A stretch of 64,000 bases of DNA from positions 1,364,001 through 1,428,000 of the forward strand of contig CM030334.1 in the NCBI GenBank assembly GCA_017654855.1, read 5' to 3'. Position numbers and translations under genes: made by a program. Below the pieces are notes generated by a model. That model ran no database searches, was not told the origin of the DNA, and saw only the letters and a program-made list of their open reading frames with translations. Every line of letters begins with the position of its first letter. The first letter of the stretch is position 1. Origin of the DNA: Podospora anserina. Lineage: Eukaryota. Shown here piece by piece: positions 36,807-41,264 of this stretch.

Positions 36807-38513
36807 ATGCCGCCGACGCGCCTGGTACGGCGACAGCCGTTGTCGGAGAGGATCAAGGCCCGTCTGAATCCTGGCGACTTTTATCTGTGGCTTTCGGAGG
36901 AGATCCAGACGTTTGACTGGGACTCTACCGCTTTCGGCACTCGGTTTGGACTTGCGGCCAACTTTCTCTTCTTGATTGCGAGGGCTAATATCGTCTCGCG
37001 TCCGGATGTGGATGATGTTTTTGGCGATGCTCCGGCCAGTGGCCCGTTGACCTTCTTGGTGAGTTCTCTCTTTTTGATGCAGAGATAGTTGGAGCTGACA
37101 GATGATCAGGCTCGTTTTAGCATGTGGGCTTTGACTGCCATCTCTTGCCTGAACGCCTTTTACACCCTGACCCGATCGCGTACCTACCGTCTATTCGAGG
37201 CAAACGTCGAGCAAAATGCCCCCTCCACGCCCTCTGCGCATCGCGTCCGCGTCGATTCTTCACCCGCGTCTTCGAGCCTATTGGGCGTAATCCAGAGCCT
37301 CCTGAGTTCCGAAACTGCCGAGCAGCGAGCGCACCCCGACAAGACACGCGATGTGTGGGAGATGAAGGTCTGGGATCCGTATCCGGCCACGCTTCGCCTG
37401 TTCTGCTTGTTCAGCCCCGGCCACGTCTTGATTCACTGGCTCTTCTTGCCTCTCGTTGCCATGGACCCCCGCCCCAGCGTCACCGTTTTCAAGTGCATGG
37501 CTCTGCAAGCCATCCTCTCCGCCCAGATGTGGCTCATGCACTCCAAGTTCACCCGTCAGGGCAAGGACAACGCCATCATTCAGAAGGAGGTCATGCATGA
37601 GTACGACGTCAAGTATGTCCACCCTAGACTGCACCCTGTCTACCGCGAGGTTGGCATACAGGTCTCCATCAACGACGACAAGATCGAACAGGAATACGTC
37701 GCTGTTGGGACGCCATCCTCTGTCATCCGTCGTAACTTTGAGACGCACCCCAACCCGAACTACGCCAAGATCATCGACCCCGACGGGCTTCAGGCCATCA
37801 AGCCGAGAAACACATTTGCTGGCACACCTAGGGGGCGCGTTTCCACAAACCCATTCACCCCCCTCGCGGCGAAAACAGCTAGACCCAGCACCCCAGGCAC
37901 CATCTCGACCCCCTCGGCCCAACTCCTCGGCTACCCCGACCGCGGAGACCACCACCACCTCCCGGCCTCAGTAACTGTTAACCGCAGAAGCACCGCCGCC
38001 CCGGCCGTTTCGTCGACCGGGTCCTTTACCAAATCTTTTACTTCCTCGTTTGAAAACGAAGCCTCGACCCCTGTCCCTCAACCCCCGTCAATGAACAGGG
38101 CTGTCTCCCCCTTCAAGGCAGGAACGCCGATGCGGTCTAGCTCGGGAACCAACCCGCTGGGTGTCCCCCCGAGCTACGGCGGAAGTCTAGGGCTGCATCA
38201 GCACAAGGACAGCCCCCTGAAGAAGGCGATGAGCATGGAGGGGATCGGGAGGTCGCCGAGGAACAACAGGGAGATGGCGGCGCTGGAGCAGAGGCAGTTG
38301 AATGAGAGGTTTAGGGAGAGGAGCAGTCCTGTTAAGCAAAGGTTGCAGGGTACTCTGGGGATTGAGCAGGAGGAGGAGGGCGAGGAGGAGGAGGAGGGGA
38401 ACAATAATGCAAGTATTGGGGATGGGAGTAGTTTGGCGCATTCACCGGAGAAGTTGGCGAATTTGAGGGCTACTAGGTGGACGCAGGAGAGGTTTCCCAC
38501 TCGGAGGTTGTGA
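36807..38513 (+). CDS. NUR1: Nuclear rim protein Nur1 / Mug154-like
   Basis: Intron 37059-37109. RLVRRQPLSERI..LNP.DF.LW N-terminus, TM segments, R.YRLFE, WDP....LRLFCLFSPGH, EVMHEYD.KYVHPRL; low-complexity tail. Confidence 0.82.
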
Positions 38514-39576
38514 TGGAAGGTAAGGTTGCTTATTTCTATGCCTGACTTTGCTACCTATGATATGGCAACAATGGGGGAGATGGGGGAACTGGACGGCGTT
38601 CTTGGGGCCTGGATTTTTGCTGAGAAATAAGGGCATGGGGACGGTGGTTTCATGCATTTTATGGGGTCTTGGGATGGGGCGTTTTTTTTTTTGGTGGTGT
38701 ATTGTTCATGCCTTGTGTTGTCTGCCCTGGTGCCTTACTTGTGGGTGAGGGCGGATGATATAAATTAGAGTAGTAATTGATTTTTATCAGCTTTTGGTCA
38801 ATCTTGAGGGAGGGTGTGTGATGGTGTGTCATCCTCTCTCTACGAGAGAGAGCGAACGTTGGTGAACTTCTCTCGAAGGAAAGGTCTAGATGTTTTATAC
38901 ATTTCAAAGGGTCGTCTTGGGGGCGTCAAGATTGTCATCACGCTACACGCTGCCAAGTTAGGAAGAGCTTACGCAGGTAGTAAGGTTACTAAGCTATGAA
39001 AATATCACACGCAGGTGTTAATATTGAACCTAATCATTTTTCTCTACCTCGCTGTTTTCCCATGTGATACCGTGAAAGAGCCACACCGAAACACGATATA
39101 ATAAAATTTATATACCGCTCAAAAATAAAAAATAAATAAAAAGCAATAATATTTTGCCACGTTTGTCAAGGTCACGTCTTCCGCTCTGAGGGTGCTCAAT
39201 CCTCTTGTTCCCTGGGAATAAGAATCGTTTTCATTGCAAAACCGTCCAAATCCTCCCCCCAGACCATGACCGCAACGTAGCCTGGCGGAGGTTCGCCATT
39301 AAAATCATCGGTCGTTTCAATCTCACCCGCCGTCCTAGCTGTGGGGGAGAGTGATCGAAGAGACTCACTGTAACTTGGAGCACCGCTGTTGTACGTAGGC
39401 TGACTCTCCGAATCTGAAAGATCATCCCCAAGCCCAGCCTCGAGTGATGCCAAAGACGAATCGCCAGAAACTTCCTAAAGCTCGCTCTGCTCTACCTCAG
39501 ACTCAGGAGTCGGTTCACCCTGAAGATTCTGGCCTTCCTCCACCTCGGCAGAAGACTGGTCGTCACGCGTACCATC

Positions 39577-41264
39577 CTAGGCGGCGGTCTCGACCTCCTC
39601 AACCTTGGCGGGCTCATCGGCCTTCTTCTCCTCAAGACTGACGTCCTCGACAGCCTTGGTGGTCTCGGCAACTGCCTTGTCCTCCTTGGCCTCTCCGTTA
39701 GAGACAACCTCGCCGCGCTCCTCGGCCTCGAGGCGCTCAATTTCCTTCTTGGCTTTCTCGACGTTCTGCAATCTCGATTAGAATGACATCGTAGCATGTA
39801 GAAAATCAAGCTTCTAAAACCCACCTTCTTGGTCTCGGCCTCCTGGTTGGCCTTCCAGTTCGCGAGCTTAGCCTTGATTGCCTCAATGGCAGCAGGGACA
39901 TCGGCAGCGCCGGACGGGAGGTTGATACCGAGAGTCTTACAGTCGTCCATCACGGCAGGGGGCAAGCTGAACTTGCCAGAGGCGGCAACACCACCCTCGG
40001 CCGCCTTGTTCTTCTTGCCCTTCTTGCCCTTCTTGGCCGCAGGGAGATAGTCCTCGTCGCGGTCCTCCTTGCGCACAAGGCGAACGCCCTTCAGGCCGTC
40101 GGCCTCAACCTTGCGGATGTCGGTGGCACCCAGACCCTTGTTGGCAACAAGAGGGGCCTTCTCGACAGTCTGGTGAGAGGGGTCGAAAAAGTGAAGGAGG
40201 CTGTTGGCGCGGCGAATCTCCTCAAGGAAAGCAGGCTCGGAAGCCTCAGCGAGCATCGCCTTGGCACGCTCCATGCGCTTCTCTTTAGCATACTTCTCGC
40301 GCTCAGCAGCTTCACGCTCGGCGCGCTTGGCCTTTTGCTCACGCTCGTAGGCAGCGGCGGCCTTCTTCTGAGTGAAGTATTCATCTCTGAGAGCCCTGAG
40401 CTCGGCGTATTTTGCATCCCTCTCGATCTTGAGCTTGGTACGCTCATCCCTGAGCTTGCCGAGGTTGTCACGGGCAGTGTTCTGCTCAGCCTTGATGACG
40501 TCGAGTTCGGCCTGAAGAGTAGCGTATTCCTCGCTCAGCTTCTTGGCCTCGGGAGTGTCCAAGCTGTCCTTGATCTCCTTGATCTTGGCCTTGTGCTCGT
40601 CAATCAGCTTCTGCTGTTGCTCAAAGCCGCCAAACAACTTCTTCTGCTTGCGGAGGTTGGAGATCTCGTTAAGCGCCTTCTTCTCATCAACAAGCTTCAT
40701 CATACCGGAGTTAACATCGCGCTCGAGACGGGCAATCTTCTCCTCGAGTTCCTCCAGGTTCTTGACGGGCAGCTTGGCACGGTCGGCCTTGCTCTCGTTG
40801 ATAAGGCGCTTCACGGTCTCTTCATGGCGCTTGATTTGGTCGAACTTGGAAGCGCGATCCTTCTTGCCACCACCCTGCTGTTCCTTGATCTCGTTGAGGC
40901 GCTTGATGAGCTCCTGTCTGCGAATCTGGGTTGGATTCTGGGACTCCTGGTCTTTTCTGGGAGCAGCAAGATCAATCTGGTTGTTTACAGCTTTCTGTGA
41001 ACAATTGGGTATTAGCATCTCCGATATTCGGTGTGACCCATATAAACCTAGGCAGCAAACGACGGGCGGTTCACAGCGGGAGGCTGCATTTCGCACCGGG
41101 GGCCAGACGGGGACAACTGAGCTGGGGCTTACAATCTTGTCCTGCAGAGCCCTGACCTCCTTGTCAAGCTTAGCCTCCTGCTCCTTGAACAGAGCCTCAT
41201 CAGGTCGGCGGATTGGGCCCGTAGGGGCGACGGCGGCGGCCGGAGCGGTGCTTTCAGTAGCCAT
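39577..41264 (-). CDS. BFR1: Nuclear segregation / polysome-associated coiled-coil protein Bfr1
   Basis: Exons 41264-41133, 40994-39825, 39765-39577. RPDE..F N-terminus, long K/E coiled coil, SGMMKLVDEKKALNEISNLRKQKK, AFLEEI, KKGKKGKK; highly biased codon usage. Confidence 0.85.

What the first reader, a model, noticed from the sequence alone, without database searches (positions are those of the whole stretch)
39196..39579. Hidden 127-aa C-terminal extension of BFR1 behind two in-frame UAG codons: candidate double stop-loss A-to-I editing
Seen: after the BFR1 stop (GCC TAG GAT, 39579-39577) the same frame continues for 33 sense codons (DGTRDDQSSAEVEEGQNLQGEPTPESEVEQSEL). It meets a second TAG (CTT TAG GAA, 39477-39475), then runs 92 more codons (EVSGDSSLASLEAGLGDDLSDSESQPTY...NGEPPPGYVAVMVWGEDLDGFAMKTILIPREQED) to TGA at 39196. 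The only internal stops are UAG, both in the context YUAGGA. The extension is acidic like the Bfr1 tail, includes a PPxY motif (PPGY), and has no AUG until near its end. U-rich 3'-end-like sequence starts only after 39196. Established: Sordariomycetes (Fusarium, Neurospora, Sordaria) carry out ADAR-independent A-to-I mRNA editing in fruiting bodies, favouring U at -1 and G at +1, which converts UAG to Trp and extends proteins. Inference: a sexual-stage Bfr1 isoform with two-step length control (+34 or +127 aa). Alternatives are translational readthrough, or use of either TAG as a phase-0 alternative 3' splice acceptor for the last intron (donor 39824).
Basis: partly seen in the sequence, partly recalled or inferred. 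Interest (0 to 1): 0.85.

Follow-up and report, generated by a model that had tools for sequence, protein, structure and literature searches.

The report
Coding-like tail behind BFR1 stop codon
Right after the stop codon of the Podospora anserina BFR1 gene, the mature mRNA carries 127 more codons that look protein-coding and are interrupted only by two UAG stops, which makes it a good but unproven candidate for a sexual-stage protein extension produced by RNA editing.

Summary
The gene is Podospora anserina S mat+ BFR1, PODANS_3_3860, 496 aa.

New evidence:
- **Transcribed.** In 4 of 4 laid RNA-like assemblies, one spliced contig runs unbroken from the coding sequence through the whole extension. 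It stops at 38997-39018, so the extension lies inside the mature mRNA and is not spliced.
- **Coding-like.** The extension has strong 3-base periodicity in the Bfr1 frame (chi2 45, p 5e-8). All 187 non-ORF control windows score 23.2 or less, and all 22 BFR1 downstream regions of distant relatives score 10.8 or less. Frame 0 has the best codon score of the six frames.
- **Substitutions.** In two other Podospora genomes, 6 of 7 inferable substitutions fall on third codon positions and there are no indels (P 0.03-0.10).

Against or missing:
- No A>G change and no alternative junction in the four assemblies, whose developmental stage is unknown.
- No extended ORF in the protein collection.
- No homologue among 1.84 billion representative proteins.
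- GC3 is only 0.49.

Verdict: the region is probably translated or was until recently. A-to-I recoding of both UAGs is the best mechanism (confidence about 0.4) but editing itself is untested. If true, it is a new member of a known kind.

The parts
41132..41263 (-). BFR1 exon 1 (ATG at 41263)
   Evidence: The three joined exons translate to 496 aa, identical to P0127, PODANS_3_3860.
40995..41131 (-). Intron 1 (137 nt, GTAAGC...CAG)
   Evidence: No 3-base periodicity (p 0.45).
39825..40994 (-). BFR1 exon 2 (390 codons, P0002)
   Evidence: 1102 homologues, the named ones called nuclear segregation protein / Bfr1, with precomputed PF27469.
39766..39824 (-). Intron 2 (59 nt, GTGGGT...CAG), phase 0
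   Evidence: Joint 39765|39825 in one contig of each of the 4 laid runs.
39580..39765 (-). BFR1 exon 3 coding part (62 codons, ends ...VEEVETAA)
   Evidence: The close orthologues examined (P0004-P0007, P0009, P0020; P0127-P0131) end at this same position.
39577..39579 (-). Canonical stop UAG 1 (candidate edited A at 39578; context CCGCC-UAG-GAUGG)
   Evidence: In the minimum-free-energy fold the A lies in a 6-nt hairpin loop UAGGAU, but the fold is not better than shuffles (z -0.9 and -0.4).
39478..39576 (-). Extension part 1 (33 codons, DGTRDD...EQSEL)
   Evidence: Periodicity p 6e-5. Codon score +0.148 bits/codon in frame 0.
39475..39477 (-). Second in-frame UAG (candidate edited A at 39476; context GCUUU-UAG-GAAGU)
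   Evidence: Paired in a weak minimum-free-energy fold, unstructured in the centroid.
39199..39474 (-). Extension part 2 (92 codons, EVSGDSS...PREQED). PPGY is at 39288-39277. The last ~25 residues are predicted as a beta-hairpin.
   Evidence: Periodicity p 3.5e-4. Codon score +0.148. Single-sequence AlphaFold2: disordered up to about residue 155 of P0001, then strands 163-172 and 175-184 with pLDDT 72-83.
39196..39198 (-). Terminal UGA of the extended frame
38997..39195 (-). Remaining 3'UTR (AT-rich, no coding signal) up to the ends of the RNA contigs at 38997, 39008, 39016 and 39018
   Evidence: contig ends. (periodicity p 0.30). (codon score below 0 in all frames).

Best explanation
The 381 bases that follow the stop codon of Podospora anserina BFR1 (PODANS_3_3860) belong to the mature mRNA and are a lineage-restricted C-terminal coding extension. 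It has no homologue outside the P. anserina species complex. It can be translated only when the canonical UAG (39579-39577), and then the second UAG (39477-39475), are read as Trp.

The most likely way is the sexual-stage, ADAT-type A-to-I mRNA editing (UAG to UIG, read as UGG) known from Fusarium, Neurospora, Sordaria and Chaetomium. This would give Bfr1+34 aa if only the first site is edited, or Bfr1+127 aa if both are. The added tail is acidic and predicted disordered, with a PPGY motif and a short hydrophobic beta-hairpin at the end. By analogy with the Dbf2 case it may change the stability or the partners of Bfr1 in fruiting bodies.

- **Shown here:** the sequence anatomy; inclusion in an unspliced mRNA; the coding-type statistics in the Bfr1 frame; frame preservation and third-position-biased substitutions in two related genomes.
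- **Inferred:** that it is translated, that editing is the recoding mechanism, and any function of the tail.
For: 1. **In the mRNA.** Each of the 4 laid RNA-like assemblies (3 studies) has one contig of 2164-2259 nt. It is spliced at 39765|39825, runs without any other joint, indel or differing letter through 39579-39196, and ends at 38997-39018. That leaves 178-199 nt of 3'UTR after the TGA but 559-580 nt after the canonical stop. The convergent neighbour's contigs end 180-290 nt after its stop at 38513.
2. **Periodicity.** Chi2 is 45.0 (p 4.7e-8) with G-rich first and A-rich second positions in the Bfr1 frame. It is seen in both parts. It is absent from four non-coding controls, from 187 of 187 non-ORF windows (maximum 23.2) and from 22 of 22 BFR1 downstream regions of distant relatives (maximum 10.8). 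There is no tandem repeat to explain it.
3. **Codon score.** Frame 0 scores +0.158 bits/codon. This is the best of six frames, above all 187 null windows (maximum 0.101), and frame 0 is the top frame in every sliding window until 39196.
4. **Continuity.** The signal starts directly after UAG 1 and keeps the Bfr1 frame across UAG 2. The only in-frame stops are UAG.
5. **Relatives.** Two unnamed Podospora assemblies, read in another frame as P0133 and P0134, have no indel across the extension. Of 7 inferable substitutions, 6 are at frame-0 third positions and 5 are synonymous. The probability of 6 or more at third positions is 0.034-0.052; of 5 or more synonymous, 0.033-0.10. At both UAGs the A and the G are kept.
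6. **Site context.** Both sites have U at -1, G at +1, G at +2 and A at +3. This matches the preferences reported for F. graminearum (passages of PMC4817773). UAG 1 sits in a predicted hairpin loop.
7. **Precedent.** 403 F. graminearum genes have stop-loss editing, with longer, disordered extensions (section 15 of PMC13123824). 70 further genes need UAG correction inside the ORF, as does PUK1 with its two tandem UAGs (passages of PMC11156358). ADAT genes are differentially expressed during P. anserina sexual development (passage of bioRxiv 10.1101/2024.12.09.627484).
Against: - **No editing seen.** The four laid assemblies have the genomic letter at 39578 and 39476. They are consensus contigs of unknown stage, so this only argues against majority editing in those samples.
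- **No extended protein on record.** None of the 10 members of the two protein clusters at 90% identity or more is 530 or 623 aa long, and none appeared.
- **Weak structure support.** UAG 2 is not in a hairpin loop. The UAG 1 hairpin is no more stable than shuffles.
- **Low base rate.** Only about 9% of UAG triplets are edited in F. graminearum.
- **Atypical codon usage.** GC3 of the extension is 0.49, against 0.58-0.79 for nine long ORFs of the window and 0.74 for BFR1. Its codon score is under half that of the BFR1 exons (0.38-0.42).
- **No homologue.** There is none among 1.84 billion representative proteins. The 4 hits are two bisulfite-converted copies of this same locus and two low-complexity proteins.
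- **No distant counterpart.** Distant BFR1 loci have no comparable extension.
- **Small substitution sample.** The test rests on 7 events, and first-position changes are mostly invisible in the frame available.
- **General doubt about adaptiveness.** A published letter argues that stop-loss editing is generally non-adaptive (whole text of PMC13684035).
Confidence: 0.4

Rival explanations
1. Untranslated 3'UTR. The coding-like signal would be a relic, for example a fragment of a lost gene or exon that came to lie behind BFR1. The open frame and the two UAGs would be coincidence. The long 3'UTR may act only as RNA.
For: No editing, junction or extended ORF was seen. GC3 is 0.49 and the codon score is well below real exons. 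The sequence is an orphan with no homologue. Openness alone is not rare: P is 0.016-0.049, 3 of 22 distant loci have only 2 in-frame stops, and an 86-codon ORF lies in another frame. The substitution test is borderline.
Against: A relic would need three coincidences: to be in the Bfr1 frame (1 in 3), to begin directly at the stop codon (part 1 alone has p 6e-5), and to have picked up only UAG stops. All close orthologues examined end at the same residue, so the stop is ancestral and the extension was never ordinary Bfr1 coding sequence. No source gene exists in the P. anserina proteome or elsewhere. Third-position-biased substitutions (6 of 7) are not expected in a dead sequence.
Confidence: 0.33
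2. The extension is translated by ribosomal stop-codon readthrough of the two UAGs, without editing.
For: The same coding-type evidence applies as for the main explanation. Readthrough extensions are known in fungi (recalled, not from a call).
Against: Both stops are followed by G-A (UAG-GAU, UAG-GAA). This is not one of the readthrough-promoting contexts I recall (UGA-CUA, UAG-CAR-YYA). Two successive low-efficiency events would make very little +127 product, too little for selection to keep 92 further codons open.
Confidence: 0.07
3. Alternative splicing brings the extension into frame. The exon 2 donor (39824) would be joined to CCTAG|GAT (39577) or TTTAG|GAA (39475), or some other intron would remove the stops.
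For: Both UAGs are YAG|G, and both acceptors would be in frame with the phase-0 donor at 39824. A consensus donor GTGAGT (39368) and GTACGC (39572) lie in the region.
Against: In 4 of 4 assemblies the only joint is 39765|39825. None of the in-frame candidate introns has a CTRAY branch site 8-45 nt upstream of its acceptor. Skipping exon 3 would delete the conserved Bfr1 C-terminus.
Confidence: 0.08

Closest known systems
Stop-loss A-to-I editing in Fusarium graminearum (FgDBF2; 403 genes)
   Same: The canonical stop is UAG. The tail is predicted disordered and is conserved only among close relatives. The UAG lies in a predicted hairpin loop. The host gene is conserved (PMC13123824, sections 13 and 15).
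   Different: The extension is much longer (127 aa) and is interrupted by a second UAG. It carries a clear coding-type periodicity. Editing has not been observed here. TAG at the BFR1 stop is common outside the close relatives too (20 of 27 metagenome loci at 39-62% identity), so TAG bias is not informative as it was for DBF2.
Premature-stop-correction genes (PUK1 with two tandem UAGs, and about 70 others in F. graminearum)
   Same: More than one in-frame UAG must be recoded to make the full product. The ORF looks like a pseudogene until it is edited (passages of PMC11156358 and PMC4817773).
   Different: Here the unedited product is the complete, conserved, vegetatively expressed Bfr1. The UAGs gate an add-on, not the core protein.
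Neurospora Sk-2 rfk-1 (early UAG edited to give a longer product)
   Same: An early UAG and a later stop define short and long products from one mRNA (abstract in the listing).
   Different: That is a meiotic-drive killer gene, not a conserved housekeeping gene. I saw only the abstract.
Bfr1 gene models with long acidic C-termini in Monosporascus (P0077, P0088) and Xylaria polymorpha (P0084)
   Same: They are Bfr1 orthologues annotated with roughly 50-115 extra acidic, Ser-rich C-terminal residues.
   Different: They show no sequence similarity to the Podospora extension (BLASTP E of 2 or more).

Membership tests
Fungal sexual-stage A-to-I stop-loss / premature-stop-correction editing target | RNA-DNA difference A>G at the stop codon in fruiting-body RNA, absent from vegetative RNA | tested here: inconclusive
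   4 of 4 laid RNA-like assemblies show no differing letter at 39578 or 39476. They are consensus contigs that drop minor variants, and their stage is unknown.
Fungal sexual-stage A-to-I stop-loss / premature-stop-correction editing target | The stop is UAG, with U at -1 and A/G at +1; weaker preference for G at +2 and A/G at +3 and +4 | tested here: met
   The sites read CUAGGAU and UUAGGAA. The preferences come from passages of PMC4817773.
Fungal sexual-stage A-to-I stop-loss / premature-stop-correction editing target | The edited A lies in a stable hairpin loop (about 62% of sites in F. graminearum) | tested here: inconclusive
   UAG 1 lies in a 6-nt loop in both the 41-nt and the 61-nt folds, but with z -0.9 and -0.4. 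UAG 2 is paired in a weak fold and its centroid is unstructured.
Fungal sexual-stage A-to-I stop-loss / premature-stop-correction editing target | The organism has the editing machinery active in sexual development | not tested
   From papers only. Editing is reported in Sordariales (Neurospora, Sordaria, Chaetomium). ADAT genes are differentially expressed in P. anserina sexual development. Searches found no published P. anserina editome.
Fungal sexual-stage A-to-I stop-loss / premature-stop-correction editing target | Sequence beyond the stop is kept as an ORF under selection | tested here: met
   Periodicity p 4.7e-8. Codon score above 187 of 187 null windows. 6 of 7 substitutions at third positions, and no indels in two related genomes (borderline P).
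Programmed translational readthrough | Readthrough-promoting context after the stop | tested here: not met
   The contexts are UAG-GAU and UAG-GAA. The promoting contexts are recalled from memory, not from a call.
Alternative 3' splice-site isoform | Junction in RNA, plus a branch-site consensus upstream of the acceptor | tested here: not met
   The only joint is 39765|39825 in 4 of 4 assemblies. No candidate intron has CTRAY within 8-45 nt of its acceptor. Minor or stage-specific isoforms are not excluded.
Bfr1 (nuclear segregation protein / multicopy suppressor of brefeldin A) | Full-length similarity to named Bfr1 orthologues | tested here: met
   The protein is identical to P0127, PODANS_3_3860. 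There are 1102 homologues with precomputed PF27469. My own Pfam scan of exon 2 did not return that family.

The most novel reading that the evidence does not exclude
A young protein module, restricted to the Podospora anserina species complex, that arose inside the 3'UTR of a conserved housekeeping gene and exists as protein only behind two editable UAG codons. Editing-gated translation in fruiting bodies would have exposed the 3'UTR to selection and let a 127-aa tail evolve: an acidic disordered linker, a PPGY motif and a terminal beta-hairpin. The two UAGs would give graded products of +34 or +127 aa. This would be direct evidence that selection acts on a stop-loss extension, which is the point disputed in the 2026 PNAS exchange.
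Probability: 0.2. Interest if true: 0.7.

Novelty: new member of a known kind. Interest (0 to 1): 0.5.

Why it matters
Stop-loss and stop-correcting A-to-I editing is established in Sordariomycetes. Whether the resulting extensions are selected or are errors is under active dispute (PMC13123824 against PMC13684035).

Most extensions are short and show no sequence constraint. This one is long, carries a coding signature, and shows third-position-biased divergence. It sits on a conserved, well-expressed gene in a genetically tractable model fungus, for which my two literature searches found no published editome.

If editing is confirmed, it gives a clean test case: the unedited product is the normal protein, and two separate UAGs can each be mutated. 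If editing is absent, a strongly coding-like orphan sequence inside a 3'UTR still needs an explanation.

Tried and rejected
- **RNA runs.** No holder is on record as RNA. 18 runs are only guessed to be RNA. The four that I laid are spliced at intron 2, which is why I treat them as RNA. Their stage is unknown, so they say nothing about sexual-stage editing.
- **Whole genome.** None is held for this window (error), so no search for paralogues of the extension was possible.
- **Homologues of the extension.** HMMER against 1.84 billion representatives gave 4 hits. P0124 and P0125 are exact C-to-T-converted translations of this same locus with TAG read as Q (0 mismatches), so they are not independent. 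P0123 and P0126 are repetitive, low-complexity proteins. The ESM Atlas gave no usable hit. Pfam found nothing in exon 3 plus the extension.
- **More relatives through spurious ORFs.** The alternative-frame 86-aa ORF found nothing at near or longer lengths. Exact look-up of two ATG-started spurious ORFs found nothing.
- **Distant BFR1 loci.** 28 of the 47 metagenome loci had a match to exon 3. None shows an extension like this one, which shows only that it is not ancient.
- **In-window control.** A control using the post-stop regions of other ORFs in the window gave too few usable rows (4) to be informative.
- **Earlier findings of this scan.** There are none for this place, sequence or topic.
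- **Papers.** Searches for Pa_3_3860 / PODANS_3_3860 and for Bfr1 with Neurospora and A-to-I found nothing. In the 6 papers listed, 'bfr1' occurs 0 times. The supplementary tables of editing sites in PMC4817773 and PMC13123824 could list the BFR1 orthologue, but supplements were closed.
- **Rejected readings.** An antisense gene is rejected: the antisense frames score 0.012 or less, and the same-register antisense frame has stops. A tandem-repeat origin of the periodicity is rejected. An independent downstream ORF is rejected: there is no in-frame ATG before codon 104.
Full report
**Identity and gene structure.** The gene on the minus strand is BFR1. Its three exons are 41263-41132, 40994-39825 and 39765-39580, and the stop is TAG at 39579-39577. 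They give a 496-aa protein identical to P0127, PODANS_3_3860 of Podospora anserina S mat+. Exon 2 alone finds 1102 homologues, the named ones called nuclear segregation protein / Bfr1. Six named species of the P. anserina complex are annotated at 496 aa. Those orthologues, and the next relatives I examined (Cercophora samala, Triangularia setosa and verruculosa, P. australis, P. fimiseda), end at the same ...E(V/A)E(T/A)AA position. The stop is therefore ancestral.

**The observation.** After TAG 1 come 33 sense codons, then TAG at 39477-39475, then 92 sense codons, then TGA at 39198-39196. Both UAGs are in the context YUAGGA. PPGY is at 39288-39277. The first in-frame ATG is codon 104.

Openness alone is only moderately unusual:
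- The probability of one or fewer internal stops in 126 codons is 0.016 by mononucleotide shuffle and 0.049 by a first-order Markov model.
- Another frame of the same strand has an 86-codon ORF here.
- Three of 22 distant BFR1 downstream regions (L001, L003, L005; L003 and L005 gave identical rows) have only two in-frame stops in 126 codons.

**Transcript evidence.** 23 public runs hold window 39000-39900. 18 of them are RNA-like by assembly size (12-21 million letters) and hold 0.89-0.91 of the sampled words. None is on record as RNA. I laid four of them, from three studies, on 38400-39950.
- Each has one contig of 2164-2259 nt with the joint 39765|39825. This is intron 2, GT..AG on the minus strand, so the contigs derive from spliced RNA.
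- Each contig runs on through the whole extension with no further joint, no indel and no differing letter, and stops at 38997, 39016, 39008 or 39018.
- The convergent neighbour's contigs stop at 38692-38801. The stretch 38802-38996 is uncovered.

If the contig ends approximate the 3' end, which is only a weak hint for contigs, the 3'UTR is 559-580 nt from the canonical stop but 178-199 nt from the TGA. The latter resembles the neighbour's 180-290 nt.

The contigs carry the genomic A at both candidate sites. Contigs drop minor variants and the developmental stage of the runs is unknown, so this excludes only majority editing in those samples. Likewise, none of the 10 members of the two closest protein clusters is a 530- or 623-aa Bfr1.

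**Coding signal.** This is the main new result.
- *Periodicity.* In the Bfr1 frame the extension has G 0.44 at first positions, A 0.35 at second positions and T 0.37 at third positions. The position-by-base chi2 is 45.0 (p 4.7e-8), and the signal is present in part 1 (p 6e-5) and in part 2 (p 3.5e-4).
- *Controls.* The rest of the 3'UTR, intron 1, the 5'UTR and the intergenic spacer give p 0.30, 0.45, 0.55 and 0.14. All 187 windows of 378 nt taken from parts of the 64-kb window without long ORFs score 23.2 or less. Only 18% of fully ORF-covered windows reach 45. All 22 BFR1 downstream regions from distant relatives score 10.8 or less. No tandem repeat explains the signal.
- *Codon score.* With a codon table trained on nine long ORFs of the window, frame 0 scores +0.158 bits/codon. 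That is the best of the six frames, equal in both parts (+0.148), and above all 187 null windows (maximum 0.101). It is below the BFR1 exons at 0.38-0.42. Frame 0 is the top frame in every sliding window down to 39196, after which all frames drop below zero.
- *Caveat.* GC3 is 0.49, against 0.58-0.79 in the window's long ORFs, so codon usage is not that of a typical, well-adapted gene.

**Relatives.** No fungal genome DNA could be fetched directly. Two routes gave partial answers.

*Distant BFR1 loci.* 47 BFR1 loci came from metagenomes at 39-62% identity. 28 of them have a match to exon 3 and 27 a definable stop: TAG 20, TAA 6, TGA 1. Two pairs gave identical rows. None has a coding-like downstream region. 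The extension is therefore not ancient.

*Other Podospora genomes.* The protein collection holds naive ORFs called on Logan contigs of two other Podospora genomes (P0133 and P0134, 527 aa).
- These ORFs read exon 2, run through intron 2, and then read exon 3 and the whole extension in another frame. That frame is open there because its TAG is TGG.
- Each residue difference from the window has a single one-base explanation.
- Across the extension there are no indels and 7 distinct substitutions. 6 are at frame-0 third positions: 5 synonymous and one Glu to Asp. One is at a second position (Asp to Gly).
- First-position changes are mostly invisible in that frame. Allowing for this, the probability of 6 or more of 7 at third positions is 0.034-0.052. 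The probability of 5 or more of 7 synonymous is 0.033-0.10, for kappa 1 to 4.
- At both UAGs the A and the G are kept. The T could be C, because it falls on a silent position of the frame read.

This is suggestive of purifying selection in frame 0, but the numbers are small.

**Homology and structure.**
- The extension, with TAG read as W, has no true homologue among 1.84 billion representative proteins. Two hits are bisulfite-converted copies of this very locus (0 mismatches to the C-to-T-converted translation). Two hits are repetitive proteins.
- Pfam and the ESM Atlas give nothing.
- The longer Bfr1 models of Monosporascus and Xylaria have acidic tails without similarity to this one.
- A single-sequence AlphaFold2 model (mean pLDDT 55.6) predicts disorder up to about residue 155 of exon 3 plus the extension. 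It then predicts a beta-hairpin over ...GYVAVMVWGEDLDGFAMKTILIP with pLDDT 72-83. This is weak evidence.

**Mechanism.** Translation of this frame requires both UAGs to be decoded.
- *Editing.* This is the best candidate. In F. graminearum, 86% of editing sites have U at -1, A or G at +1, G enriched at +2 and A/G at +3 and +4. 62% lie in hairpin loops, and about 9% of UAG triplets are edited (passages of PMC4817773). Both sites here read UAGGA. UAG 1 lies in a 6-nt predicted loop, but the fold is no better than shuffles. UAG 2 does not lie in a loop. Stop-loss editing affects 403 F. graminearum genes and gives longer, disordered tails that destabilise GFP fusions (PMC13123824 section 15). 70 further genes, like PUK1 with its two tandem UAGs, need UAG correction inside the ORF (PMC11156358). 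DBF2 stop-loss editing is reported in eight Sordariomycetes, including the Sordariales Neurospora, Sordaria and Chaetomium. In P. anserina, ADAT genes change expression during sexual development. I found no published editome.
- *Readthrough.* This is less likely. UAG-G is not a promoting context as I recall it, and two low-efficiency events in series would yield almost no full-length tail.
But it lacks a branch-site consensus and shows no junction in the four assemblies.
- *Relic.* A relic of an unrelated coding fragment would have to be in frame, start exactly at the stop, and carry only UAG stops. No source gene exists.

**Verdict.** The editing interpretation remains the best mechanism, but its defining feature, A>G in fruiting-body RNA, could not be tested here.

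My probabilities:
- about 0.40 that this is an editing-gated C-terminal extension;
- about 0.33 that it is an untranslated relic or a coincidence;
- about 0.15 together for readthrough or splicing.

If true, it is a new member of a known kind. It would be unusual for its length, its second gate and its coding signature, and it would be useful for the current dispute over whether stop-loss extensions are selected.

Noticed in passing
L001-L045 (BFR1 loci from metagenomes), stop codon of the Bfr1 frame: The BFR1 stop codon is TAG in 20 of 27 loci with a definable stop (TAA 6, TGA 1), across relatives at 39-62% identity. The pairs L003/L005 and L029/L035 gave identical rows. The bias is not limited to the closest relatives, so it does not by itself point to editing. 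It is unexplained.
   Followed up: partly
P0077, P0088 (Monosporascus), P0084 (Xylaria polymorpha): These annotated Bfr1 proteins have roughly 50-115 extra acidic, Ser-rich C-terminal residues. They show no similarity to the Podospora extension. They could be gene-model artefacts or independent extensions.
   Followed up: partly
P0124, P0125 (Logan ORFs); window 39199-39576: The protein collections contain ORFs called on bisulfite-converted contigs of this locus, with every C read as T and TAG translated as Q. They look like homologues in HMMER searches but are the same sequence.
   Followed up: yes
window 39494-39492 (minus strand, frame +1 of the extension): The TAG that closes the naive intron-reading ORF in P. 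anserina (P0003 and P0132, 590 aa) is TGG in two other Podospora assemblies, which gives 527-aa naive ORFs (P0133, P0134). In the Bfr1 frame the change is a synonymous GTA to GTG.
   Followed up: yes
window 39368-39363 and 39572-39567 (minus strand): A consensus 5' splice-site hexamer GTGAGT and a GTACGC lie inside the extension. Neither is used in the four laid RNA-like assemblies.
   Followed up: partly
window 37089-38513 (+) and 38514-38996: The convergent neighbour ORF ends at 38513 and its RNA-like contigs end at 38692-38801. The stretch 38802-38996, between the two convergent transcripts, is uncovered in all four runs.
   Followed up: no
P0002 (exon 2 of BFR1): The precomputed Pfam column lists PF27469 for every Bfr1 homologue. 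My own Pfam-A scan of exon 2 returned only a sub-threshold Ribosomal_L7Ae match. The local Pfam copy may lack that family.
   Followed up: no
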